NCBI GenBank assembly: GCA_964407105.1
Contig: CAYOUG010000002.1
Span: 11,041 to 75,040 of the forward strand
DNA length: 64,000 nt
Reading direction: 5' to 3'
Source of the DNA: an uncultured Candidatus Saccharibacteria bacterium
GTDB lineage: Bacteria > Patescibacteriota > Minisyncoccia > Phycocordibacterales > CALRHW01
In this document: positions 5,040 to 36,894 of the stretch, piece by piece
How positions within the stretch are numbered: the stretch's first letter is position 1
How the letters are laid out: each line of letters starts with the position of its first letter
Notes under the pieces: generated by a model
The model's database searches: none
Told to the model about the DNA's origin: nothing
The model's input: only the letters and a program-made list of their open reading frames with translations
Translations under genes and position numbers: made by a program

Positions 5040-5050
5040 GAAGTATACAC

Positions 5051-5225
5051 ATCAACACAAAGACCTCTTGAACGAGTTAGCGGAAGAGGTTTAGAAAATG
5101 TTGAGATTTTTAGAAAAATGAAGCTGTCTGACGAGCGAAGCGAGGAGTTCTTCATTTTTCGTTAAAAAATCGATTACATTTTCAAAGCTCTGTAGCGCTT
5201 TAGTGAGAGAGGTCTTTGTGTTGAT
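5051..5225. repeat. nested inverted repeats in the gyrA 3' spacer
   Basis: The outer 18-bp inverted repeat is ATCAACACAAAGACCTCT (5051-5068) with AGAGGTCTTTGTGTTGAT (5208-5225). The inner hairpin is GAAAAATGAAG (5113-5123), a 26-nt loop CTGTCTGACGAGCGAAGCGAGGAGTT, and CTTCATTTTTC (5150-5160). Confidence 0.7.
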
Positions 5226-5229
5226 GCTA

Positions 5230-5337
5230 AAAACCAAAAACCATCTTTGGAAAACCACGCATAAATCGCTGCTGCGATTTTGCTACGCTCGGCCCGTCGG
5301 CCTGCGCGATGCTTTTCCAAAGATGGTTTTTGGTTTT
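5230..5337 (+). repeat. copy 1 of a conserved 58-nt GC-rich core (5255-5312) inside a perfect 25-bp AT-rich inverted repeat
   Basis: The arms are AAAACCAAAAACCATCTTTGGAAAA and TTTTCCAAAGATGGTTTTTGGTTTT. The core is CCACGCATAAATCGCTGCTGCGATTTTGCTACGCTCGGCCCGTCGGCCTGCGCGATGC. The core is repeated at 34218-34275 (minus) and 36819-36876. Confidence 0.9.
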
Positions 5338-5393
5338 TCCTTATACACATAAACAAATACTCCGATTGTCTTTTTTCCGCTATAATTAAAGTA

Positions 5394-5918
5394 ATGTTTG
5401 CCGATCCTATAAAAAACATAGAAAGCTTTTCACTTATTTCTGGTATGACAATAGCAGATCTTGGTGCTGGCTCTGGTGCGTATACGGTGCCCATAGCTCG
5501 TGCGGTGGGTGGTTTGGGAAAGGTGTATGCGGTAGACGTGCAAAAAGACCTTCTTACGCGCATAAAAAATGATGCCAACAAACAACACCTCATGAACATA
5601 GAGGTGGTGTGGGGAGATATTGAAAAACGCGGTGGTACTAAAATACGTGAGGGCTGTATCGATGGTGCTATTGCAAGCAACATTCTTTTTCAACTTCACG
5701 ACAAAGAGGGTTTTAGAGACGAAGTAAAAAGAATATTAAAACCCGGCGGTAGGGTGTTTATTATAGATTGGACGGATTCATTTGGTGGTCTTGGACCACA
5801 GCAGGCATCAGTATTTTCTCTTGCATCGTGCAAATCACTTTTTTCTAATGGTTTTTCAGTAGAAAAAGAATTTAGTGCGGGCACTCATCATTACGGGATA
5901 ATTTTCAAAAAACAATAA
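5394..5918 (+). CDS. class I SAM-dependent methyltransferase
   Basis: The SAM-binding motif I is ADLGAGSGAYT, and acidic and hydrophobic post-motifs follow (VYAVDVQ, FIIDW). The track ORF has an N-terminal extension that reads through the repeat; the ATG at 5394 is the likely start. Confidence 0.7.
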   Translation: MFADPIKNIESFSLISGMTIADLGAGSGAYTVPIARAVGGLGKVYAVDVQKDLLTRIKNDANKQHLMNIEVVWGDIEKRGGTKIREGCIDGAIASNILFQLHDKEGFRDEVKRILKPGGRVFIIDWTDSFGGLGPQQASVFSLASCKSLFSNGFSVEKEFSAGTHHYGIIFKKQ

Positions 5919-5919
5919 T

Positions 5920-7224
5920 ATGAAAAACATGAGCAAATTTCAGTTAATATTTACCGGTGTTTTTGTCGCTCTTATTTTTTTTGCAGTGATATTATTTTCT
6001 ATTGGCGGTATAGGGTCTTCCAATAATCAGTCTTCAGATCTTGTTGTGTGGGGTACTTTAAATGCGGCGCAATTTTCACAAATTGTAGAACGTTCTGGTT
6101 TAAAAAATAACAAATCACTAAAATTTACATATGTTCAAAAAAATGATGCCACTTTTGATACAGATTTTATAGAAGCGTTGGCTTCGGGTGTTGGTCCAGA
6201 TCTTTTCTTTTTACCGCAAAATTCAATACTTAAACATCAAGACAAACTTTATGTAATTCCATACAAAACCCTTTCCGAAAGAGATTTTAAAGACGTGTTT
6301 ATTGAGGAAGGGGAGCTTTATCTTACTTCAAAAGGTGTTCTTGGTATTCCTTTTATCATTGACCCACTTGTGATGTATTGGAATCGTACGATTTTTTCAA
6401 ATGCTGGCGTGAGTGCTCCACCAAAATATTGGAGTGACTTGTATGATCTTGCGCCACGTCTTGTTACAAAAGACGGTGCACTTAATGTGCGCCAAAGTGC
6501 TATTGCTTTTGGAGAATATTCAAACGTTTCTCATGCTCAAGATATACTTAGTATGCTTGTGATGCAGGCGGGTGGAAAAATAGCAGAGCGTCAATCAGAT
6601 GTTGTTACTAGTACACTTTTAAATAAATACAATGCACCGATAGTGCCAGCAAACACAGCGCTTAGTTTTTACACCGAATTTACAAATCCACTAAAGCCAT
6701 TTTATTCTTGGAACCGATCACTTTTAGCTTCAAAAAATTATTTTATTTCTGGTGATTTAGCGATTTATATCGGTTATGCTTCAGAGGTTGGTGAAATTCG
6801 TGCCAAAAATCCAAATCTTAATTTTGACGTGGCAAAAGTGCCACAATCGAAAGAAACAACACAAACTCTCACCTTTGGATCAATGCAAGCATTAGCCATA
6901 CCAAAAGCGTCTAAAAAACAAGCTGGCGCGGTAGAAGCCGCTCTTCTTTTGGTGGGTAAACCAGCACTTACCGAGCTTATAAACGTCACAAGTTTGCCGC
7001 CAGTGCGCCGTGACATGCTTTTGTCACAACCAGATGACAAATATATGTCGATATTTTATGAAAGTGCTGTGCAGGCTCGTGCATGGCTTGAACCCGATCG
7101 ATCACAAACCAAAAATATTTTTAAAGAAATGATAGAGTCTGTCACAAGTGGTAGGCGCACGATTAATGAGTCTGTGTCGCGTACAGATCTTGAACTTAAT
7201 GGATTATATAAAGAATTACAATAA
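5920..7224 (+). CDS. extracellular solute-binding protein (ABC transporter substrate-binding, family 1-like) with N-terminal membrane anchor
   Basis: The 434-aa product has an N-terminal transmembrane helix followed by a periplasmic-binding-protein-like fold (MalE-type length and composition). Confidence 0.55.
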   Translation: MKNMSKFQLIFTGVFVALIFFAVILFSIGGIGSSNNQSSDLVVWGTLNAAQFSQIVERSGLKNNKSLKFTYVQKNDATFDTDFIEALASGVGPDLFFLPQNSILKHQDKLYVIPYKTLSERDFKDVFIEEGELYLTSKGVLGIPFIIDPLVMYWNRTIFSNAGVSAPPKYWSDLYDLAPRLVTKDGALNVRQSAIAFGEYSNVSHAQDILSMLVMQAGGKIAERQSDVVTSTLLNKYNAPIVPANTALSFYTEFTNPLKPFYSWNRSLLASKNYFISGDLAIYIGYASEVGEIRAKNPNLNFDVAKVPQSKETTQTLTFGSMQALAIPKASKKQAGAVEAALLLVGKPALTELINVTSLPPVRRDMLLSQPDDKYMSIFYESAVQARAWLEPDRSQTKNIFKEMIESVTSGRRTINESVSRTDLELNGLYKELQ

Positions 7225-7646
7225 TGAAAAAACCTTTTTTACAACGTATCACTGTAGTAATGATGTTTTTGCTTATATTTTTTGTGATTGCTATGCCTGC
7301 AGTATCATTTGCTAAAATTAAAAGCGGTATTATACCTTGTGGCAACACTCCACCCGGTGCAACATTGGAACAAATAAATGCAGAGGCCTGTGATTTCAAC
7401 GATTTTCTTCAGTTAGGTAAAAATATTATTAATTATTTGGTGTTATTATCAATCCCACTTGCCGCGATTGCTTTTGCGTGGGCTGGATTTTTATACATTA
7501 CTTCGGGTGGAAGTGAGGGAAAAATTGGTAAAGCAAAAGATATATTTTGGAAGGTGATGTGGGGATTTATTTTTATTCTCACCGCGTGGCTGATAGTCTA
7601 CAGTATTACCAAGTTTTTGGACCCAGGATTTTCGTATCTTGGTTAA
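7224..7646 (+). CDS. pilin-like two-transmembrane protein, VirB2/TrbC (T4SS pilin)-like family, paralog 1
   Basis: A signal peptide is followed by a Cys-containing N-domain and a conserved C-terminal core (AFAWAGFLYITSGGSEGKIGKAKDIFWKVMWGFIFILTAW). All six tandem paralogs share the pattern hydrophobic helix, [FW]WG, acidic/basic loop ending in R/K, WGhh, second helix. Confidence 0.6.
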   Translation: MKKPFLQRITVVMMFLLIFFVIAMPAVSFAKIKSGIIPCGNTPPGATLEQINAEACDFNDFLQLGKNIINYLVLLSIPLAAIAFAWAGFLYITSGGSEGKIGKAKDIFWKVMWGFIFILTAWLIVYSITKFLDPGFSYLG

Positions 7647-7695
7647 TGTGTGTAGTATTCTCGACTTTATGAAACAGAAAAAATATAATAGATAT

Positions 7696-8085
7696 ATGAA
7701 ATTTCTTTCAAATGTGATGTTGGGGCTTTTGTTTGCCTTAGCGATTTTTGTGCCCTTTGTGCACGCAGAAATTACGTCTGGTAATTTATTTCCAAATCCA
7801 CTTGGTGACAGTGTTGGTAATAGTTTATATGGTTTTGTGTATTTTGTTCTTACAAATATTGTGATGCCTATTGGTTCCGTTGTCGTAGTATTTTTCATTA
7901 TTTATGCTGGATTTTTGTTTGTTACTGCGCGTGGCAATGAAAAGAAGCTTGAAAGCGCTAAAAAAACCTTTCTTGCTGTGGTTATCGGTGCAGTTATTTT
8001 ACTCGGCTCTTGGACAATCGCGAGTGCTATAAAAGGTACACTGTGTCAGATTTCTGGTGGAAATATTCCTGATCTATGTAACTAA
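7696..8085 (+). CDS. pilin-like two-transmembrane protein, paralog 2
   Basis: A signal peptide is followed by the core (FFIIYAGFLFVTARGNEKKLESAKKTFLAVVIGAVILLGSW) and a C-terminal Cys pair (LCQISGGNIPDLCN). Confidence 0.55.
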   Translation: MKFLSNVMLGLLFALAIFVPFVHAEITSGNLFPNPLGDSVGNSLYGFVYFVLTNIVMPIGSVVVVFFIIYAGFLFVTARGNEKKLESAKKTFLAVVIGAVILLGSWTIASAIKGTLCQISGGNIPDLCN

Positions 8086-8086
8086 T

Positions 8087-8497
8087 ATGAAAAAATATCT
8101 TACAAATTTTATAGGAATATTTCTTTTCGTGATTTTTCTGAGTGTACCAAACATAGCGTCAGCTCAGTTTTTGCAAGGCCTTTTTGGTTGTCCGGTTCCT
8201 CCGCAAAATTTTTCTGAGGTTGTGTGTATTTTTGTAGATATTTTACTTCTTCTCGTGCCACTTCTTGTAGGTATCGCATTACTTGTATTTTTCTGGGGCA
8301 TCGTAAAGTTTATTAAAAGTGCTGGTAGTGAAACTGCGCGAGACGATGCAAAAAATATTATGTTTTGGGGTATTATCGCTCTTTTTGTAATGGTTTCTAT
8401 TTGGGGTATCGTGCAATTTTTCTTTCAAGACTTTTTTGGTTTTAGTGTCGGTATTCATGTGTTTGGTATTCCACAGCTTCCATTTTTTCCAAATTAA
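8087..8497 (+). CDS. pilin-like two-transmembrane protein, paralog 3
   Basis: A signal peptide is followed by a Cys pair and the core LLVFFWGIVKFIKSAGSETARDDAKNIMFWGIIALFVMVSIWG. Confidence 0.6.
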   Translation: MKKYLTNFIGIFLFVIFLSVPNIASAQFLQGLFGCPVPPQNFSEVVCIFVDILLLLVPLLVGIALLVFFWGIVKFIKSAGSETARDDAKNIMFWGIIALFVMVSIWGIVQFFFQDFFGFSVGIHVFGIPQLPFFPN

Positions 8498-8506
8498 TTT
8501 TAAATT

Positions 8507-8803
8507 ATGTTTCAAATTTCTAACATTCAGCAACTCATTTTGGGCGTGACCTCTCTTGTGAAAATGCTTATTCCGCTTGTGGCAGGTATCGCATTACTTG
8601 TATTTTTTTGGGGCCTGGCAAAATTTGTGCTTCACGCAGACAGTGAAGATGCGCGTGAAGAGGGAAGGCGTCTTATGTTTTGGGGTATTATCGCTCTTTT
8701 TGTGATGATATCTGTATGGGGACTTGTATATTTTATTGGATCAGCTCTTGGTATTGGCCAGGGTGGTATAATGGGCTCTTTTTTCTCTTGGTCTGGATGG
8801 TAA
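8507..8803 (+). CDS. pilin-like two-transmembrane protein, paralog 4
   Basis: The core LLVFFWGLAKFVLHADSEDAREEGRRLMFWGIIALFVMISVWG is almost identical to the paralog 3 core. Confidence 0.6.
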   Translation: MFQISNIQQLILGVTSLVKMLIPLVAGIALLVFFWGLAKFVLHADSEDAREEGRRLMFWGIIALFVMISVWGLVYFIGSALGIGQGGIMGSFFSWSGW

Positions 8804-8926
8804 AAACATAAGCTATTCACATATCTTGCTGTCGTTGCGGTTGTATTAGGTTGTTCATAATAGTATGATTATATTGTGGTTTTTACACGTCGAAACGACG
8901 ATTATTATTTAAATAATTAAAGAAAG

Positions 8927-9268
8927 ATGAAAAAAGTTATTTTACTATTGGGATTATTTGCTACCCCATTATTTATACACGCACAAGTACTTGGAAACAT
9001 AACAGAAATTTTGAATGCAATAAAAAATATTGTTTCAAACCTTATTCCAATTATATTTGCACTTATTCTTATATATTTCTTTTGGGGTTTGGCAAAATTT
9101 GTGCTCAATTCAGGTGATGAAGACGCTCGAACAAACGGACGACAGATGATGATTTGGGGACTTGTGGCACTTTTTGTAGCTTCTGCGGTGTGGGGTCTTA
9201 CAAAGTTTATTGGAGATGCTATTGGTGTAGATAATGTAGATTCTGTAGACGTTCCTAGTATAAATTAA
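8927..9268 (+). CDS. pilin-like two-transmembrane protein, paralog 5
   Basis: The signal peptide is MKKVILLLGLFATPLFIHA and the core is LILIYFFWGLAKFVLNSGDEDARTNGRQMMIWGLVALFVASAVWG. Confidence 0.6.
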   Translation: MKKVILLLGLFATPLFIHAQVLGNITEILNAIKNIVSNLIPIIFALILIYFFWGLAKFVLNSGDEDARTNGRQMMIWGLVALFVASAVWGLTKFIGDAIGVDNVDSVDVPSIN

Positions 9269-9285
9269 ATCTGACTGTTAGTTTA

Positions 9286-9552
9286 ATGACGATTAATCAG
9301 CTTCTCAACAACATAATAGCTTACATTCTTCAGCCAATTATTTTGCTTATGTTTGCTATTGCTCTTGTTACTTTTTTCTGGGGCATTATTCAATTTATTT
9401 CCACATCAAACAGTGATGAGGGAAGAGAAACTGGCAAACGTACTATTGTGTGGGGGATTATTGGAATGCTTATAATGATAGGTGTGTATGGTGTTATTCG
9501 TATTTTGCTAGGCACTTTCGGTATTCCTGCTCCAAGTTATTTGGGATTTTAG
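9286..9552 (+). CDS. pilin-like two-transmembrane protein, paralog 6
   Basis: The core is ALVTFFWGIIQFISTSNSDEGRETGKRTIVWGIIGMLIMIGVYG. Confidence 0.55.
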   Translation: MTINQLLNNIIAYILQPIILLMFAIALVTFFWGIIQFISTSNSDEGRETGKRTIVWGIIGMLIMIGVYGVIRILLGTFGIPAPSYLGF

Positions 9553-9570: not shown

Positions 9571-9645
9571 AAAATAAAACAAAAAAACACTTCTCGAGTG
9601 GTTTAGCGAAGCGCTTTAACGAGAGAAGTGTTTTTTTGTTTTATT
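9571..9645 (+). terminator. long AT-rich hairpin terminator ending the pilin-like array
   Basis: A roughly 24-26-bp inverted repeat, AAAATAAAACAAAAAAACACTTCTCG with CGAGAGAAGTGTTTTTTTGTTTTATT, flanks a 23-nt loop AGTGGTTTAGCGAAGCGCTTTAA. Confidence 0.6.
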
Positions 9646-9714: not shown

Positions 9715-11007
9715 TTACTTAAAGGTGATCGTGTAAGTGATGGGTGAACCCCCATCTGGTGCTCGGAACGCAATCGTCCGAATCGCCCCACCAAGATCTC
9801 TCTCGGCGGAAATCTGCATCCCCGGTTCGTACCAAAACTCTCTCGAGTCATTAATACGAATCCACGCCCCGCTACTGGTTTCGCACCCAATGTGCTTTCC
9901 AGCGACGTTGTACGTTTCGCTTTCTTTTCCTGGCATCAGCGTGCCTGTGATAACGGGCTTTGAAGAAGGTTGTGACACGTTTGTCACTGGCCTTCCCCAC
10001 GTTCCGTCTTTCTTGAGACCAATCGTGGCATCAAGAATGAGGAGTGTGATTGCTCCCACAATAACGAGCGTGATCGCACCCTTCAAAACCGCACTAAACG
10101 TTCCGGTGAAGAATGTCCAGCGGTCTTTGGCGGTAACCCTGTTCTTGTCTTCCACCACCTCTGGCTTTTTGAAGAGCCATGCAAGGAGCAGAACACTAGC
10201 CAGTCCAACAATCAGCCAAAACTCCAACGGTTTGTCCGCTTTAGTTTTTTCTAATGTCGGAACTACTGTGTGCTCCCACACGTCAGTGAACACAAGGCTC
10301 ATGATGACGTAGATGAGAACAATAAGGCAGAACAACCCCAAAAGCTTCTTCCAGAATGTGCCAGATGGTACGAATGGCTTGGTAGAGTCTATCACCCTTC
10401 CGAACCGCCCTCTTGGCGGGTTCGCAGGTGTCGGTGGTGATGTGGTGGCTGGCACCGCAGGTGTCGGCGACGTTGTCGTCGCAACCCTAGATTTTTGATT
10501 GGCCAGATATTTCTTCCGGAGAATCAACACCACCACAATACCAACAGCCAGCATGATTAGGTTGTTTACCAAGTTTCCTTGGACCACATTAACCACTTCA
10601 GCTGTTGCGGGTGATTCATCTACCACTTCCTCTTTGCTGTTTGAAGACAAGGAAAGAAATGGGTAGATGAGTGGGAAATACGTCGTGGATGAGTAAACGA
10701 CCATCACCGTGGTCGCAACCACCCCAACGAAAAACACCGCAAGCGAGGTGGTGGCCTTGTGTTTCCACAGATAATCACCCAACTTTTTTGTCTGTGTCCA
10801 CACCCACACGAAGCACCAATGAATGATACTTCGTGTTGTTTTGACAAAGGCAGTTCTCCTAAATCTCCTTGTTGTCATTGCGACCGCTGTTCCGAGTCGA
10901 TACCGACCAACCCATTCAAAGAATGAGGTATCGAGTATTACCCAGAACACCATACTGATCACAGAAATCAACAGAAGCAGGCCCACAAGGGCCAAAATTG
11001 TCCACAT
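9715..11007 (-). CDS. GC-rich polytopic membrane protein with Pro/Thr-rich linker and C-terminal beta-rich extracytoplasmic domain (hypothetical)
   Basis: The 430-aa product has multiple transmembrane helices, a TTTSPTPAVPATTSPPTPANPP linker, and a C-terminal soluble domain. Its GC content is about 50%, against about 38-40% in neighbouring genes. Confidence 0.6.
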   Translation of the reverse strand: MWTILALVGLLLLISVISMVFWVILDTSFFEWVGRYRLGTAVAMTTRRFRRTAFVKTTRSIIHWCFVWVWTQTKKLGDYLWKHKATTSLAVFFVGVVATTVMVVYSSTTYFPLIYPFLSLSSNSKEEVVDESPATAEVVNVVQGNLVNNLIMLAVGIVVVLILRKKYLANQKSRVATTTSPTPAVPATTSPPTPANPPRGRFGRVIDSTKPFVPSGTFWKKLLGLFCLIVLIYVIMSLVFTDVWEHTVVPTLEKTKADKPLEFWLIVGLASVLLLAWLFKKPEVVEDKNRVTAKDRWTFFTGTFSAVLKGAITLVIVGAITLLILDATIGLKKDGTWGRPVTNVSQPSSKPVITGTLMPGKESETYNVAGKHIGCETSSGAWIRINDSREFWYEPGMQISAERDLGGAIRTIAFRAPDGGSPITYTITFK

Positions 11008-11165: not shown

Positions 11166-12455
11166 CTAGGGCGTCCCTGGAGACGGTGGAGTCGTGGTTG
11201 TTGGGGGGGTTGTGGTTGTTGGAACCCCCTTGTCTCCCGCACCAAGCAATCCTTCCATAGCTGCTGCCATGAGTGGATTTCCTGCACCTCCATTACCCAT
11301 GAAAACAGTCTTGGTCTTGTCTCCACCCCACACGTCTTTAGCTGTTTGGGCTTGAAGAGCTAGTTGACCTTCACGTGTCTTCGCTGTTTTAGCGAGCCTT
11401 GCCAAACCAGCAGCTTCGCCCTCAAGCTCGTGCTTACGAGCCAGACCTCTACCTTGTCCATTAAGAATTGATTGCTCTCTGGTTGCCTCTGCGTCGGTGA
11501 TCGTTTTTCCCTTATTTGCTAATGCCTCACTTCGATTTGCCATAGCAAGGCTTACCCTTTTCGGAATTCCAAGATCAGTGATCTGGATTCCTTCATTGTC
11601 GATGTCGATACCCCACTGGTTTTTTTCATTTGACTCGGTGGCTGTTCCGGCGGCAACGTCCGGATCACCGATTGCTTCACCGACCTTTTTCTGAATGCTT
11701 GTCTTGAGTTCTTCTAATCTAGTTCGAGCCGTCGCCAAGCTCATTTTGCCCGACTCTGCTTGAAGTACACCCGTAACACTGTCTGCCAATGTCACACCCA
11801 CTTGCTCAAGGCTGTTAAACCTTTCTGCAAATGCAATGGTGTCGAAGATACTTAATCGAATCGTGATTCTCGGGTCTGTTGTAATCTCAGTGCGCAACGG
11901 GTTATTGTTAGTATTAGGACCGGTGTCAGCACTCCATATGACCCTGAACGGATCATTACTTCTCAGAAGCACGTCACCACGACTATCAAAAGTCGAAAAG
12001 TGACTAGTGATTCCGCTGTTTCCAGACGGAATAATGTTTCCTTCTTCATCCAAAATCGTTCTCGGTGTTGCAAGTTCGATTTGGATTTTTGATCCCGGAA
12101 AGGGTCGGAGAGAACACACTAGAAATGGCACAAACACAATTCCTGCCTTTACCCTTTGAATGGGTTTGCCGAAAAATAGTTTGACACCAATATCCGGTGC
12201 TGTAACTGACCGAAAACTAAGCGCAATGTAAATTACGCCAAGCCCCCCAAACAGCAAATCCGTGCTGATCGTTTGTCCGAAAATGGAGTATTGCTTACCG
12301 AATCCGGTAAACCACTTCCATCCAACAAACAGAACGACGATCGAAACAACGACCGTCATCCAAAACAGGAAAAACCTACGCCAGTTGTCATTCCGCATTT
12401 CATCTCGAGTCATGGTTTGTCTCCAGTAAGGTGTTGTATTTATTGTTCTTCGCAC
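11166..12455 (-). CDS. SPFH/band-7 (stomatin/HflK/C/flotillin-like) membrane protein with C-terminal Thr/Pro-rich tail
   Basis: An N-terminal transmembrane helix precedes SPFH-like core segments (IVFVPFLVCSLRPFPGSKIQIELATPRTIL, RITIRLSIFDTIAFAERF) and a long Ala/Glu-rich helical region. The tail is TTTTPPTTTTPPSPGTP. The gene is GC-rich. Confidence 0.6.
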   Translation of the reverse strand: MRRTINTTPYWRQTMTRDEMRNDNWRRFFLFWMTVVVSIVVLFVGWKWFTGFGKQYSIFGQTISTDLLFGGLGVIYIALSFRSVTAPDIGVKLFFGKPIQRVKAGIVFVPFLVCSLRPFPGSKIQIELATPRTILDEEGNIIPSGNSGITSHFSTFDSRGDVLLRSNDPFRVIWSADTGPNTNNNPLRTEITTDPRITIRLSIFDTIAFAERFNSLEQVGVTLADSVTGVLQAESGKMSLATARTRLEELKTSIQKKVGEAIGDPDVAAGTATESNEKNQWGIDIDNEGIQITDLGIPKRVSLAMANRSEALANKGKTITDAEATREQSILNGQGRGLARKHELEGEAAGLARLAKTAKTREGQLALQAQTAKDVWGGDKTKTVFMGNGGAGNPLMAAAMEGLLGAGDKGVPTTTTPPTTTTPPSPGTP

Positions 12456-12511: not shown

Positions 12512-12755
12512 ATACTTCCGTAATAGTTCAACGACTTGAATGGAAGCTTGGACGGATTTGGCGTAATATCGCAATATCACAAAACAGGATCAAATTGTAA
12601 TATAAATGAAACAAGTTTTGGCACCCAAATATTTTGTGTCAAAAGTAGACCAATTCCGATAATAATTAAAACTAACAAAAATATTCTTATAAAATCTATA
12701 AATTTCATTGTTACAATTATACTAAATAAAAATCATTACCCAAAACATTTTTCTG

Positions 12756-12837
12756 TGGGCGAGGGGAGACTCGAACTCCCATGGATTACTCCACTAGTTC
12801 CTAAGACTAGCGCGGCTACCAATTACGCCACTCGCCC
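12756..12837 (-). tRNA. tRNA-Leu (anticodon UAG), type II with a long variable arm
   Basis: The reverse complement GGGCGAGTGGCGTAATTGGTAGCCGCGCTAGTCTTAGGAACTAGTGGAGTAATCCATGGGAGTTCGAGTCTCCCCTCGCCCA folds as a cloverleaf. The acceptor is GGGCGAG/CTCGCCC, the T-arm is GGGAG-TTCGAGT-CTCCC, and the anticodon loop is CTTAGGA. Confidence 0.85.
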
Positions 12838-12873
12838 GGCGTTTACTTACGCTCGCATATTTTTGCGAACTTG

Positions 12874-12946
12874 TCCGCCCACCAGGATTCGAACCTGGGA
12901 CCCACCGCTTAAGAGGCGGTTGCTCTACCAACTGAGCTATAGGCGG
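12874..12946 (-). tRNA. tRNA-Lys (anticodon CUU)
   Basis: The reverse complement CCGCCTATAGCTCAGTTGGTAGAGCAACCGCCTCTTAAGCGGTGGGTCCCAGGTTCGAATCCTGGTGGGCGGA has the D-arm GCTC-AGTTGGTA-GAGC, the anticodon loop CTCTTAA, and the T-loop TTCGAAT. Confidence 0.8.
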
Positions 12947-13008
12947 ATTCACACATTTTATATATTCACACGTTGTCTTTATAACACAAACTCACTGAAA
13001 ATTAAACC

Positions 13009-13095
13009 TGGTGCCCGGGGCGGGAATCGAACCCGCAAGAGCTTTAGCTCACGACATTTTAAGTGTCGCATGTTTACCAATTTCATCACCTGGGC
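13009..13095 (-). tRNA. tRNA-Leu (anticodon UAA), type II, with CCA encoded
   Basis: The reverse complement GCCCAGGTGATGAAATTGGTAAACATGCGACACTTAAAATGTCGTGAGCTAAAGCTCTTGCGGGTTCGATTCCCGCCCCGGGCACCA has the anticodon loop CTTAAAA and the T-arm GCGGG-TTCGATT-CCCGC. Confidence 0.8.
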
Positions 13096-13567
13096 GTTTC
13101 TTCCGATTCTTTCCTCTGTGGGTCAGTTTGAGACTGTGACAGTTTGGACAAAGAATCCTCAAATTTTCTAAACGATTATCATGGCTATCACCGTTTATAT
13201 GATCGAGTTCTAAGGGTAATCTACCATCTTCTGACCTTTTTGCCCACCCACACTCTACACATTTATTAGACATAAAACCCTCTTTTATTAATCTATTTTT
13301 TAACTTATAACTTTGGTAATAACTATCTTTAATTAATATTTTTTCAATAGGTAAAATGGGTTTTCCTATTCCCATCAGACCCTTATTCCATGATTTTCCC
13401 CGAAAATGTTTCGTGTCAATTTTATAATATTCTATATATTTTTTAATTTGTGAATAATTTCCACCAGCCTCAATAAGTCCAAGCTTTTTTATGACTTGTC
13501 TAAAATTTGTTGAAGACTCCGAGGCTTCTCTTAATTGTTCTTCTGTCCAACTTTTCTTTTTATTCAT
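13049..13567 (-). CDS. HNH endonuclease (homing-endonuclease-like)
   Basis: The HNH motif is CVECGWAKRSEDGRLPLELDHINGDSHDNRLENLRILCPNCHS. The N-terminal region (SWTEEQLREASESS..KKLGL..GGNY) is typical of phage/mobile HNH enzymes. The last roughly 47 nt of the frame overlap the 5' half of tRNA-Leu(TAA). Confidence 0.75.
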   Translation of the reverse strand: MNKKKSWTEEQLREASESSTNFRQVIKKLGLIEAGGNYSQIKKYIEYYKIDTKHFRGKSWNKGLMGIGKPILPIEKILIKDSYYQSYKLKNRLIKEGFMSNKCVECGWAKRSEDGRLPLELDHINGDSHDNRLENLRILCPNCHSLKLTHRGKNRKKRPGDEIGKHATLKMS

Positions 13568-13627
13568 TTTGCCAATTATTATAGACAAAAAGAGATAAAG
13601 AAATTATAAAAAAAAGATAAAATTTTG

Positions 13628-13701
13628 AGGCGTAGGCCGGGGTTGAACCGGCGCATAGCAGTTTTGCAGACTGCCGCGTTAACCAACTTCGCCACTACGC
13701 C
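13628..13701 (-). tRNA. tRNA-Cys (anticodon GCA)
   Basis: The reverse complement GGCGTAGTGGCGAAGTTGGTTAACGCGGCAGTCTGCAAAACTGCTATGCGCCGGTTCAACCCCGGCCTACGCCT has the anticodon loop CTGCAAA, the T-arm GCCGG-TTCAACC-CCGGC, and the acceptor GGCGTAG/CTACGCC. Confidence 0.8.
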
Positions 13702-34200: not shown

Positions 34201-34292
34201 AAAAAAGCTTTTGAAAAGCATCGCGCAGGCCGACGGGCCGAGCGTAGCAAAAAGCCAGCAGGCTTTTATGCGTGGTTTTCAAAAGCTTTTTT
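34201..34292 (-). repeat. copy 2 (reverse orientation) of the conserved 58-nt core (34218-34275), flanked by a perfect 17-bp AT-rich inverted repeat
   Basis: The arms are AAAAAAGCTTTTGAAAA and TTTTCAAAAGCTTTTTT. The core on the minus strand is CCACGCATAAAAGCCTGCTGGCTTTTTGCTACGCTCGGCCCGTCGGCCTGCGCGATGC. Confidence 0.9.
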
Positions 34293-36800: not shown

Positions 36801-36894
36801 AAAAGTGTTTTTCAAAAACCACGCATAAATCCCTGCTGGTATTTTGCTACGCTCGGCCCGTCGGCCTGCGCGATGCTTTTTGAAAAACACTTTT
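36801..36894 (+). repeat. copy 3 of the conserved 58-nt core (36819-36876), flanked by a perfect 18-bp AT-rich inverted repeat
   Basis: The arms are AAAAGTGTTTTTCAAAAA and TTTTTGAAAAACACTTTT. The core is CCACGCATAAATCCCTGCTGGTATTTTGCTACGCTCGGCCCGTCGGCCTGCGCGATGC. It begins 5 nt after the rpsP stop codon. Confidence 0.9.

What the first reader, a model, noticed from the sequence alone, without database searches (positions are those of the whole stretch)
7224..9552. Tandem array of six diversified VirB2/TrbC-type pilin-like two-helix membrane proteins
Six consecutive small genes (88-148 aa) share a conserved C-terminal core: a hydrophobic helix, F[FW]WG, a short loop ending in R/K (SEDAREEGRR, GDEDARTNGRQ, SDEGRETGKR...), WGIIALFVM..VWG, and a second helix. 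The N-terminal portions diverge: each has a signal peptide with or without a Cys pair, and one paralog has a C-terminal Cys pair. Several genes are separated by 10 nt or less, which suggests an operon, and a possible internal promoter lies at 8804-8926. The architecture matches T4SS-pilin-like (VirB2/TrbC-type) proteins that are expanded in CPR-type reduced genomes, yet no other T4SS component is adjacent. The array ends at a long-stem terminator and faces a GC-rich membrane-protein islet. Tandem diversification of surface-exposed subunits is the kind of locus expected to mediate host-cell or phage interaction.
Basis: partly seen in the sequence, partly recalled or inferred. Interest (0 to 1): 0.6.

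Follow-up and report, generated by a model that had tools for sequence, protein, structure and literature searches.

The report
Conserved six-gene VirB2-like pilin operon
A tiny-genome (candidate phyla radiation) bacterium carries an operon of six very different copies of a conjugation-type (VirB2-like) pilin gene behind a sugar-binding-protein gene. Arrays of this kind were already described in these bacteria in 2023-2025, so this is a clean new example and not a new kind of system.

Summary
Six consecutive + strand genes (7224-9552) each score above the curated cut-off of Pfam PF18895 (T4SS_pilin). Each has a two-helix hairpin with a basic loop, and no seventh copy exists in the window.

The kind is already published. 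Quinonero-Coronel et al. 2025 counted 441 such arrays of 2-11 genes in Patescibacteria, with mean identity 25%. A six-gene PF18895 array is essential in Southlakia epibionticum (Wang et al. 2023).

My additions:
- The six are ancient paralogues, not a recent expansion. Relatives keep them copy by copy in a fixed order, og1-og2-og3-(og4/og5)n-og6. Of 58 species loci with enough sequence downstream, 54 carry 4-8 copies.
- The array always directly follows a membrane-anchored MalE-like solute-binding-fold gene, with a median gap of 2 nt.
- No VirB4, VirB6, VirD4 or ABC-transporter gene lies in the 64 kb window.
- The about 90-nt spacer before og5-type genes carries a DnaA-box-like motif upstream of a -10 element in most species. 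The window's own copy is degenerate.
- Relatives include single polypeptides with 2-11 fused hairpin modules.

Verdict: new member of a known kind, moderate-to-low interest.

The parts
5341..5386 (+). Candidate promoter of the MTase-SBP-pilin1-4 transcription unit. A DnaA-box-like TTATACACA (5341-5349) sits 31 nt before a perfect TATAAT (5381-5386), which ends 7 nt before the MTase ATG. The transcript would be nearly leaderless.
   Evidence: Read directly from the sequence; pattern match. The same box-plus-TATAAT arrangement precedes the orthologous MTase start in L020 and L062. Function is inferred, not shown.
5394..5918 (+). Class I SAM-dependent methyltransferase. It is the first gene of the unit, and its stop lies 1 nt before the SBP start.
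   Evidence: Pfam Methyltransf_31/11/25. The start is set by the 174-175 aa orthologues. Present upstream of the SBP gene in 41 of 62 assessable species loci.
5920..7224 (+). Membrane-anchored MalE-like (cluster B, carbohydrate-type) solute-binding-fold protein. Its stop overlaps the start of pilin 1.
   Evidence: Pfam SBP_bac_1 at 57.6 bits and SBP_bac_8. A PDB profile search gives sugar-binding SBPs, top hit 4r9f at E 4.9e-19. The AF2 model has pLDDT 92.4 with an N-terminal helix 6-28. Foldseek TM scores to oligosaccharide SBPs are 0.67-0.72. A pilin array follows it directly in 54 of 58 species loci.
7224..7646 (+). Pilin-like paralogue 1 (orthogroup og1), 140 aa. It has a signal-like segment, a Cys pair (C39, C56) in the outside N-part, and a two-helix hairpin.
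   Evidence: PF18895 at 31.5 bits; TrbC E 0.021. Orthologues score 154 and 120 bits against 40 or less for paralogues. At least 2 Cys lie before helix 1 in 65 of 67 og1 members.
7696..8085 (+). Pilin-like paralogue 2 (og2), 129 aa from ATG 7696. The open frame starts at TTG 7639. It has a signal-like segment and a C-terminal Cys pair (C117, C128), and is the most TrbC-like of the six.
   Evidence: PF18895 at 36.4 bits; TrbC at 23.9 bits, E 4.9e-5, below the cut-off. The start is set by orthologues. tblastn against plasmids hits only genes annotated 'TrbC/VirB2 family protein' on Bacillus pXO2-type conjugative plasmids, at E about 0.1.
8087..8497 (+). Pilin-like paralogue 3 (og3), 136 aa. It has a signal-like segment and an N-part Cys pair (C35, C47).
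   Evidence: PF18895 at 34.5 bits; orthologues score 128 and 113 bits.
8507..8803 (+). Pilin-like paralogue 4 (og4), 98 aa, with no signal peptide in this genome.
   Evidence: PF18895 at 41.1 bits. A stop codon lies immediately upstream of the ATG. 49 of 70 og4 members elsewhere do have an N-terminal hydrophobic segment.
8804..8926 (+). Spacer with a candidate internal promoter for p5-p6. It holds a degenerate DnaA-box-like CTATTCACA (8813-8821), -10 candidates CATAAT (8856-8861) and TATGAT (8864-8869), and a small hairpin (8888-8900).
   Evidence: The spacer before og5-type genes has a median of about 90 nt, against 2-20 nt at other junctions. 35 of 56 such spacers match TTATCCACA with 1 mismatch or fewer, against about 3% in controls. 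RNA folding is not significant, z 0.41. The window's own copy has 2 mismatches and atypical spacing.
8927..9268 (+). Pilin-like paralogue 5 (og5), 113 aa, with a signal-like segment and no Cys. This type has its own promoter region and a variable copy number (1-4) across species. It is the candidate major subunit (inferred).
   Evidence: PF18895 at 42.3 bits; 102 homologues, nearly all PF18895; AF2 hairpin model; copy-number variation.
9286..9552 (+). Pilin-like paralogue 6 (og6), 88 aa. It never has a signal peptide and is always the last gene of the array.
   Evidence: PF18895 at 29.8 bits. None of 57 og6 members has an N-terminal hydrophobic segment. Terminal position in the arrays.
9573..9645 (.). 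Long-stem, symmetric (bidirectional-type) terminator hairpin that closes the operon.
   Evidence: 23-bp stem, MFE -35.4 kcal/mol, z -6.6, and none of 200 shuffles folds as well.

Best explanation
This is a chromosomal operon of a Parcubacteria/Paceibacteria-type CPR bacterium. It encodes six ancient, non-redundant paralogues of the Patescibacteria VirB2-like pilin family (Pfam PF18895). They are co-transcribed behind a membrane-anchored, MalE-like sugar-binding-fold protein.

Shown here:
- family membership
- two-helix hairpin anatomy with a basic loop
- copy-by-copy orthology and fixed gene order across dozens of species
- tight coupling to the SBP-fold gene
- absence of T4SS machinery genes nearby

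Inferred:
- The proteins insert into the cytoplasmic membrane with both ends outside and the basic loop inside. Four would use cleavable signal peptides and two (p4, p6) would insert directly.
- As for VirB2/TraA pilins, they are then drawn from this membrane pool by a VirB4/VirB6-type T4SS encoded elsewhere in the genome, and built into one heteromeric surface fibre or conduit used in contact with a host cell.
- The og5-type gene has its own promoter region and a variable copy number, so it is the likely major subunit.
- og1-og3, with Cys pairs in their outside segments, and the signal-less og6 are likely minor or structural subunits.
- The SBP-fold protein may act as a glycan-binding partner, but its role is untested.
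For: Family and anatomy:
- All six genes score above the PF18895 gathering score. Genes 1-2 give weak TrbC hits.
- All six give sub-threshold hits to NCBIfam NF045849, 'pilin-like conjugal transfer protein' of mycoplasma ICEs.
- The top PDB sequence match of the family profile is the pKM101 VirB2 pilin TraM (8cw4), at E 0.035.
- Hairpin anatomy and basic loops.
- The og1/2 and og3-6 subgroups are homologous (hhalign probability 98.6%).

Conservation:
- Each paralogue's best hits are the same-position genes of relatives.
- 54 of 58 species loci have 4-8 copies in the order 1-2-3-(4/5)n-6, directly after the SBP gene.
- Each orthogroup keeps its own traits.
- Selection is purifying at strain level: 7 synonymous and 0 non-synonymous changes in p5 plus p6.

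Support from related proteins:
- Natural fusions of neighbouring or diverged modules exist. P0103 is og5-og6, P0248 has three diverged modules, and P0250 has six modules in one uninterrupted ORF. These fit an ends-outside topology and side-by-side assembly.

Literature:
- PF18895/PF04956 pilins occur in 1,948 VirB4-containing Patescibacteria assemblies, with 441 arrays of 2-11 genes and mean identity 25% (PMC12102498). Identity here is 27%.
- The six PF18895 genes SEML1_0014-0019 lie next to VirB6-, VirB4- and PrgI-like genes, and all are essential (PMC10633639 main text and supplement).
Against: - No VirB4, VirB6, VirB3/PrgI or VirD4 gene lies in the 64 kb window, or within about 8-10 kb of the array in 86 related loci. 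The link to a T4SS therefore rests on family homology and on the Saccharibacteria precedent.
- The canonical TrbC/VirB2 model is not passed.
- The fold search of the hairpin model is uninformative.
- No pilus built from PF18895 proteins has been seen in any organism, according to the papers read.
- Polypeptides with 6-11 fused hairpins are hard to reconcile with one-by-one extraction of pilin monomers, unless they are processed.
- SBP adjacency cannot be separated from the frozen gyrA synteny: gyrA is upstream in 61 of 62 loci.
Confidence: 0.65

Rival explanations
1. The paralogues are interchangeable variants of one major pilin. They would be kept for antigenic or host-range variation, as proposed for Bartonella trwL and Anaplasma virB2 arrays and suggested for Patescibacteria arrays in the 2025 survey.
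For: - The literature suggests this (PMC12102498).
- The copy number of og4/og5-type genes varies from 1 to 4 between species.
- In L007 and L008 the og5-type copies share an identical hairpin core but differ in their outside N- and C-tails.
- Each og5-type copy has its own promoter-like spacer.
Against: - Orthologues across species are much closer than paralogues within a genome.
- The order 1-2-3-(4/5)n-6 is fixed in dozens of species.
- The orthogroups differ in lasting traits. og1 always has a Cys pair, and og6 never has a signal peptide.
- p5 and p6 show 7 synonymous and 0 non-synonymous changes between strains, while the neighbouring 430-aa membrane gene has 13 amino-acid changes.
- At best this reading applies to the og4/og5 subset.
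Confidence: 0.15
2. The six hairpin proteins work without any T4SS. Together with the SBP-fold protein they would form a membrane-embedded complex, for example a ring or channel of twelve helices serving uptake or sensing of a host-derived sugar. This would resemble SBP-dependent non-ABC transporters (TRAP/TTT type).
For: - There are no T4SS genes within 64 kb.
- The SBP gene is translationally coupled to pilin 1, with a median gap of 2 nt in 65 loci.
- No ABC permease or ATPase for this SBP lies in the window.
- Relatives with 2-11 hairpins in one polypeptide look like polytopic membrane proteins.
- The paralogue set has a fixed composition.
Against: - The family is homologous to VirB2-type pilins.
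- In Saccharibacteria the same kind of six-gene array sits inside the T4SS cluster with no SBP gene.
- VirB2-like genes lie near virB4 in 1,135 assemblies.
- SBP adjacency may be inherited synteny only.
Confidence: 0.12
3. They are generic small membrane peptides, such as class II bacteriocin-like or holin-like proteins, that only resemble pilins by composition.
For: They are small, hydrophobic, tandemly arranged and Gly/Trp-rich. The fold search of the hairpin gives no specific match.
Against: - All six make curated-threshold Pfam matches to a pilin family.
- A profile of the six finds 47,810 related cluster representatives.
- There is no double-glycine leader, immunity gene, or transporter or lysis genes nearby.
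- The genes are deeply conserved in a housekeeping context.
Confidence: 0.02

Closest known systems
VirB2-like pilin arrays of Patescibacteria (Quinonero-Coronel et al. 2025, PMC12102498). These include the essential six-gene array SEML1_0014-0019 of Southlakia epibionticum (Wang et al. 2023, PMC10633639).
   Same: - The Pfam family is the same (PF18895).
- The genes are in tandem and there are six of them.
- Within-array identity is very low: 27% here against 25% reported.
- The host is a CPR bacterium.
- No relaxase or coupling protein lies nearby.
   Different: - Here the array is not in the T4SS cluster. It sits in a housekeeping block, gyrA-(MTase)-SBP-array, with no VirB4, VirB6 or PrgI within 64 kb.
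- It is translationally coupled to a solute-binding-fold gene, which is not mentioned in that paper.
- It comes from the Parcubacteria/Paceibacteria side. The survey found arrays most abundant in Microgenomatia and Saccharimonadia.
Canonical conjugative pilins VirB2/TrbC/TraA/TraM (Pfam PF04956; F, T and pKM101 pili)
   Same: - They are small proteins with a signal peptide, two hydrophobic helices and a basic connecting loop.
- The predicted membrane topology has both ends outside.
- Sequence similarity is weak: TrbC E 4.9e-5 for p2, and TraM 8cw4 is the top PDB hit at E 0.035.
   Different: - The TrbC model's curated threshold is not reached.
- Two of the six lack signal peptides.
- There are six different paralogues instead of one pilin.
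- The host is a monoderm.
- No adjacent assembly machinery is present.
- No fibre has been demonstrated.
Tandem virB2 paralogue arrays of host-associated Proteobacteria (Bartonella Trw trwL1-n, Anaplasma phagocytophilum virB2 copies)
   Same: Several tandem, divergent VirB2-type genes occur in an obligately host-associated organism. They are thought to act at the host surface.
   Different: Those arrays are lineage-specific amplifications inside or next to the T4SS locus, interpreted as variant pilus forms. Here the paralogues are ancient, ordered and individually conserved across species.
VirB2-like small proteins of monoderm conjugation systems: the pXO2-type 'TrbC/VirB2 family protein' and the Mycoplasma ICE Mbov_0395 family (NCBIfam NF045849)
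   Same: They are the closest plasmid and ICE-borne relatives by sequence. All 98 tblastn hits of p2 in PLSDB fall on the pXO2-type gene. All six paralogues hit NF045849 at E from 1.6e-7 to 3.6e-3. This fits the MPF-FATA ancestry of the Patescibacteria T4SS.
   Different: - The similarity is below every curated threshold (hhalign probability 16%).
- Those are single genes inside conjugation clusters.

Membership tests
Pfam PF18895 T4SS_pilin | Whole-protein HMM score at or above the curated gathering score (26.6 bits) | tested here: met
   The six genes score 31.5, 36.4, 34.5, 41.1, 42.3 and 29.8 bits.
Canonical TrbC/VirB2 pilin (Pfam PF04956) | HMM score at or above the gathering score (27.9 bits) | tested here: not met
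   The best score is 23.9 bits (p2). p1 scores 15.5 bits, and p3-p6 give no hit at E 1 or lower.
Canonical TrbC/VirB2 pilin (Pfam PF04956) | Two hydrophobic helices joined by a short basic loop, with both ends on the outer side of the membrane | tested here: met
   Hydropathy shows two helices and 3-5 Lys/Arg in the loop for p2-p4 and p6. The script merged the two helices for p1 and p5, so their loops were read by eye from the alignment. AF2 models helices 22-60 and 65-98 for p5. The topology is inferred from the positive-inside rule and was not measured.
Canonical TrbC/VirB2 pilin (Pfam PF04956) | Cleavable N-terminal signal peptide | tested here: inconclusive
   An N-terminal hydrophobic segment followed by an AxA-like site is present in p1, p2, p3 and p5, and absent in p4 and p6. 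No SignalP-type predictor was available.
Canonical TrbC/VirB2 pilin (Pfam PF04956) | Encoded together with VirB4/VirB6 and the other mating-pair-formation genes | tested here: not met
   There is no T4SS family hit in any window ORF scanned, nor in the called genes and ORF clusters of related loci. A lysozyme-like PF18896 ORF lies near the array in a minority of loci.
Canonical TrbC/VirB2 pilin (Pfam PF04956) | Polymerises, with phospholipid, into an extracellular pilus | not testable with these tools
   This needs microscopy or biochemistry. The papers read report no such fibre for PF18895 proteins.
Patescibacteria VirB2-like pilin array (PMC12102498) | Two or more PF18895/PF04956 genes in tandem, or separated by one non-pilin gene | tested here: met
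   Six contiguous genes, 7224-9552.
Patescibacteria VirB2-like pilin array (PMC12102498) | High divergence within the array (reported mean 25%, maximum 54% identity) | tested here: met
   Mean 27%, minimum 14%, maximum 45%.
Patescibacteria VirB2-like pilin array (PMC12102498) | Host genome belongs to Patescibacteria | tested here: met
   The closest loci are MAGs titled Paceibacterota, Parcubacteria or Zambryskibacteria. The window has a compact housekeeping gene content at 38% GC. The window's own record was not retrievable.
Patescibacteria VirB2-like pilin array (PMC12102498) | Genome also encodes a Patescibacteria-clade VirB4 | not testable with these tools
   Only 64 kb of a 141,748-bp contig is available, and the source contig was not returned. 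The literature reports VirB4 in 2,417 of 3,035 assemblies.
Variable tandem virB2 arrays (Bartonella trwL / Anaplasma virB2 type) | Recent lineage-specific amplification, with paralogues within a genome closer to each other than to genes of other species | tested here: not met
   Same-position orthologues score 94-154 bits, against 26-94 bits for paralogues. For p4 the weaker orthologue (94 bits) only ties the best paralogue. The order is fixed in 80 species loci.
Carbohydrate ABC importer (for the upstream SBP gene) | MalE-like two-lobe solute-binding fold | tested here: met
   Pfam SBP_bac_1, PDB profile hits, AF2 pLDDT 92.4, Foldseek E 3e-22 to sugar SBPs.
Carbohydrate ABC importer (for the upstream SBP gene) | Adjacent permease and ATPase genes | tested here: not met
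   No BPD_transp or transporter-type ABC_tran hit occurs in the window; the only ABC_tran hit is a weak one inside SMC, and none occurs in the neighbouring genes of related loci.

The most novel reading that the evidence does not exclude
In Paceibacteria the solute-binding-fold protein and the fixed set of six hairpin paralogues form a self-contained membrane apparatus that does not need a T4SS. It would be a ring or channel of helical hairpins serving SBP-dependent uptake or sensing of a host-derived glycan. The relatives with 2-11 hairpins fused into one polypeptide would belong to the same kind. Its main subunit gene would be switched by a DnaA-box-like operator, tying its production to replication state.
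Probability: 0.1. Interest if true: 0.75.

Novelty: new member of a known kind. Interest (0 to 1): 0.35.

Why it matters
T4SS genes and the accompanying VirB2-like pilin array are among the few functions shown to be essential for the epibiotic life of a cultivated CPR bacterium. Their role is still described as completely unknown (PMC11665869).

This locus adds no new kind of system. The comparative picture around it does give testable constraints:
- The paralogues are a fixed, ordered, individually conserved set, so they look like parts of one assembly and not variants.
- They are co-transcribed with a sugar-binding-fold protein.
- One subunit type has its own conserved regulatory spacer.
- Fused multi-hairpin relatives exist.

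These points could guide structural modelling and genetics in the cultivable relatives.

Tried and rejected
- **Fold search.** Foldseek of the p5 hairpin model against the PDB gave no match at E 0.001 or lower, and no pilin among the top hits. Two-helix hairpins are too simple for this test.
- **Profile against pXO2.** Comparing the og1/og2 profile with the pXO2 'TrbC/VirB2 family protein' gave probability 16%. This is suggestive only.
- **Structured RNA in the spacer.** The 8804-8926 spacer has no fold above shuffles (z 0.41). It is better read as a promoter region.
- **oriC reading of the boxes.** The box is not enriched in the window: 19 matches with up to 1 mismatch against 18.2 expected, and no cluster.
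- **dN/dS across paralogues.** I replaced it with strain-level counts against a 97.4%-identical contig. The sample is small.
- **Source contig and its VirB4.** The 141,748-bp NCBI contig was not returned. The best genome-collection match to the SBP gene is only 62% identical.
- **Distant T4SS-linked relatives.** The alignment-based homologue search listed only close og5-type relatives.
- **Separating SBP-array linkage from synteny.** This failed, because gyrA is upstream in 61 of 62 loci.
- **Bacteriocin or holin reading.** Rejected on the HMM results.

Full report
**Observation.** The region 7224-9552 holds six consecutive + strand ORFs of 88-148 aa. Orthologues in related contigs place the starts of genes 2 and 3 at ATG 7696 and ATG 8087. 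The products are then 140, 129, 136, 98, 113 and 88 aa. The six align over a common C-terminal core. Pairwise identity is low: mean 27%, range 14-45%. An HMM built from the six finds no further copy among all six-frame ORFs of the 64 kb window; the next best E-value is 0.54.

Gene spacing is tight. The stop of the upstream gene overlaps the first ATG (TAATG). The gaps are 1 nt (p2 to p3), 9 nt (p3 to p4) and 17 nt (p5 to p6), with a single long gap of 123 nt before p5. The operon ends in a 23-bp perfect hairpin, 9573-9595 paired with 9623-9645, at -35.4 kcal/mol and z -6.6. Beyond it lie two genes on the opposite strand with markedly higher GC, 49.5% and 47.6% against about 36-39%. The F[FW]WG motif is confined to genes 3-6. 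Only four of the six proteins have an N-terminal signal-like segment; p4 and p6 do not.

**What the genes are.** All six pass the curated threshold of Pfam PF18895 (T4SS_pilin), at 29.8-42.3 bits against 26.6. Genes 1 and 2 add sub-threshold matches to TrbC/VirB2, PF04956. All six also give sub-threshold hits to NCBIfam NF045849, the 'pilin-like conjugal transfer protein' of mycoplasma ICEs. A profile of the family has the pKM101 VirB2 pilin TraM (8cw4) as its best PDB sequence match, but only at E 0.035.

In PLSDB, p2 hits only genes annotated 'TrbC/VirB2 family protein' on Bacillus pXO2-type conjugative plasmids. Each hit is weak (E about 0.1), and the gene lies inside the conjugation region. 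Profile comparison with that protein gives probability 16%. The two subgroups of the array, og1/2 and og3-6, are clearly homologous (probability 98.6%).

Each protein has two hydrophobic helices around a loop with 3-5 Lys/Arg. AlphaFold models p5 as helices 22-60 and 65-98, with pLDDT 84.5. The fold search of that hairpin is uninformative. A profile of the six finds 47,810 cluster representatives at E 0.001 or lower in a 1.84-billion-protein library, so the family is very large.

**Genome context.** The window is ordinary chromosome of a small-genome bacterium. It carries gyrA, IF-2, ClpB, ThrRS, DnaE, RNase HII, NusB, RNase III, SMC, RNase R, rpoB/C, DnaG, two sigma-70 factors, HisRS, BipA, enolase and four tRNAs. 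No ORF matches a T4SS ATPase, VirB6, a coupling protein, a type IV pilus ATPase, or an ABC permease or ATPase. Homologues come from MAGs labelled Paceibacterota, Parcubacteria, Zambryskibacteria and Minisyncoccia, so the host is a CPR bacterium of the Parcubacteria side.

The gene directly upstream (5920-7224) is a membrane-anchored solute-binding-fold protein. The evidence is Pfam SBP_bac_1, profile hits to sugar-binding SBPs in the PDB (top E 4.9e-19), a confident model (pLDDT 92.4, N-terminal helix 6-28), and Foldseek TM scores of 0.67-0.72 to oligosaccharide SBPs. It is preceded by a small SAM methyltransferase.

**Comparative evidence.** Related contigs keep the block gyrA-(MTase)-SBP-pilin array, followed by variable genes on the opposite strand. 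BLAST and orthogroup HMMs show that each window paralogue is closest to the same-position gene of the relatives. For example, p1 scores 154 and 120 bits against 40 or less for any paralogue. For p4 the margin is thin: its weaker orthologue (94 bits) only ties its best paralogue.

A scan of one genome per species found at least 532 relatives of the SBP gene, and I analysed the best 80 loci. Of 58 loci with at least 3.5 kb downstream, 54 carry 4-8 pilin-like ORFs in a direct chain. The modes are 6 (22 loci) and 7 (19 loci). The order is og1-og2-og3-(og4/og5)n-og6, and the median SBP-to-og1 gap is 2 nt.

The orthogroups keep their own traits:
- og1 has at least 2 Cys before helix 1 in 65 of 67 members.
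- og6 never has a signal-like segment (0 of 57) and is always last.
- og4/og5 vary in copy number.

Against a 97.4%-identical strain contig, p5 and p6 show 7 synonymous and 0 non-synonymous changes. The neighbouring 430-aa membrane gene has 13 amino-acid changes. The array is thus an old, ordered, purified set, not a recently diversifying one. One caveat applies. gyrA is also upstream in 61 of 62 assessable loci, so SBP-array adjacency cannot be told apart from frozen synteny by these data.

**Regulatory spacer.** The gap before og5-type genes is consistently long, with a median of about 90 nt against 2-20 nt elsewhere. In 56 such spacers, 35 match the DnaA-box consensus TTATCCACA with 1 mismatch or fewer, and 12 match exactly. 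Controls give about 3% in shuffles or random genomic pieces. The 8-mer TATCCACA occurs 20 times in 5.4 kb of spacer, against 0.33 expected. In the forward orientation a TATAAT-like hexamer starts 28-29 nt after the box in about 18 loci. Of 39 sites with this composite architecture in 1.03 Mb, 28 precede a pilin gene.

The window's own spacer has only a degenerate copy, CTATTCACA at 8813-8821, with atypical spacing. The box is not enriched in the window as a whole. A similar box, TTATACACA at 5341-5349, lies 31 nt before a perfect TATAAT that ends 7 nt before the methyltransferase ATG. The identity of the binding protein is untested.

**Comparison with what is known.** The kind is published. 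Quinonero-Coronel et al. 2025 searched 3,035 Patescibacteria genomes with PF04956 and PF18895. They found VirB2-like pilins in 1,948 VirB4-containing assemblies, near virB4 in 1,135 of them. They found 441 arrays of 2-11 pilin genes with mean identity 25%, and compared these with Bartonella and Anaplasma arrays. Wang et al. 2023 showed by Tn-seq that the pilin series in the T4SS cluster of Southlakia epibionticum is essential. Their supplement lists SEML1_0014-0019 as six PF18895 genes beside VirB6-, VirB4- and PrgI-like genes. [quoted passage not shown] The role of the system is still called completely unknown.

This locus differs in three ways:
- It lies away from any T4SS gene.
- It is coupled to an SBP-fold gene, which is not mentioned in the survey.
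- It belongs to the Parcubacteria side.

It fails the canonical TrbC threshold, and it fails the 'recent amplification' feature of the Bartonella-type arrays.

**Mechanism.** Shown: family membership, hairpin anatomy, fixed paralogue set, operon structure. Inferred: insertion with both ends outside, by the positive-inside rule and by analogy with F and T pilins (established knowledge); disulfides in the outside segments of og1-og3; and assembly into one heteromeric fibre or conduit by a VirB4/VirB6 machine encoded elsewhere. og5 would be the major subunit.

Natural fusions support side-by-side assembly and the ends-outside topology:
- P0103 joins an og5-type and an og6-type module.
- P0248 joins three diverged modules.
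- P0250 is an uninterrupted 555-aa ORF with six modules and one signal peptide.

The same fusions, with up to 11 modules, are awkward for a classical pilin-by-pilin extraction model. They keep open a membrane-ring or channel reading, possibly together with the SBP-fold protein. I rate that reading at about 0.1.

**Verdict.** This is a new member of a known kind. Interest is modest (0.35). It rests mainly on the comparative constraints found here: fixed order, SBP coupling, a conserved box-bearing spacer, and fused relatives. The locus itself is not what makes it interesting.

Noticed in passing
window 8804-8926; spacers before og5-type genes in L009-L088: A DnaA-box-like 9-mer (TTATCCACA) is strongly enriched in the about 90-nt spacer before og5-type pilin genes. 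35 of 56 spacers match with 1 mismatch or fewer, against about 3% in controls. The box often sits exactly 28-29 nt upstream of a TATAAT-like hexamer. The window's own copy (CTATTCACA, 8813-8821) is degenerate. I found no paper that mentions both DnaA boxes and Patescibacteria.
   Followed up: partly
window 5341-5396: TTATACACA, then 31 nt, then a perfect TATAAT that ends 7 nt before the methyltransferase ATG. This is a likely promoter giving a nearly leaderless mRNA for the MTase-SBP-pilin unit. The same arrangement occurs in L020 and L062.
   Followed up: partly
window 5040-5345; also 34208-34285 (- strand) and 36815-36880; L066, L081, L087, L072: A repeated structured intergenic element. The gyrA-MTase gap folds into two long hairpins (-133.8 kcal/mol, z -12.9) and is absent from close relatives. 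The core of the second hairpin recurs on both sides of the RNase R gene and in other species. In a five-copy alignment, 21 of 40 pairs show compensatory changes. There is no Rfam match. It may be an unannotated ncRNA or terminator module, or a REP/MITE-like palindromic element.
   Followed up: partly
window 9715-11007 (- strand): An orphan 430-aa membrane protein with about six hydrophobic segments, counted by eye. GC is 49.5% and GC3 is 55%, against 23-30% GC3 in housekeeping genes. It has no Pfam family and no homologue in 86 related loci apart from two near-identical strain contigs. It shows 13 amino-acid changes against a 97%-identical strain. It looks like a recently acquired or fast-evolving surface gene.
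   Followed up: partly
window 11166-12455 (- strand); same position in many loci: A fast-evolving SPFH/Band-7-like membrane protein lies convergent to the array. Divergent homologues (22-28% identity) or members of a related 33-ORF cluster sit downstream of the array in many species. One relative carries a major-vault-protein shoulder domain.
   Followed up: partly
P0250 / L090 76-1743; P0254, P0262, P0361, P0248, P0103-P0105: Single polypeptides carry 2-11 tandem pilin hairpin modules. Examples are a 555-aa uninterrupted ORF with six modules and one signal peptide, and a 1,147-aa protein with 11 matched stretches and Cys pairs in the linkers. Of 153 top-scoring family members examined, 127 have at least 2 modules, but ranking by total score favours such proteins. 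The 2025 survey does not mention them.
   Followed up: partly
L007 10001-11242; L008 10001-10768: In more distant relatives the og5-type copies share an identical hairpin core (FFFWGLAKYMLGDAEDKEKGKNLMIWGVIALFVAASIWGLVAFL) but have different outside N- and C-tails. This points to recent duplication or gene conversion of the core with diversification of the exposed ends.
   Followed up: no
L074 6281-7945 (- strand) and a cluster of 13 ORFs; L026 9738-16070: A lysozyme-like PF18896 (SLT_3) protein, possibly VirB1-like, lies 1-4 kb from the array in a minority of species. In L026 the array stops after og3 and is followed by a 2,111-aa Ig/cadherin/PKD-repeat protein of adhesin type.
   Followed up: no
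window 7224-9552: Third-codon-position GC of the array is 0.41, against 0.23-0.30 in gyrA, rpoB, IF-2 and the SBP gene. This may be a codon-usage signal of high expression or a composition effect. It is not explained.
   Followed up: no
window 13049-13588 (- strand): An HNH endonuclease ORF (Pfam HNH, HNH_3) sits inside the cluster of four tRNA genes (12755-13701).
   Followed up: no
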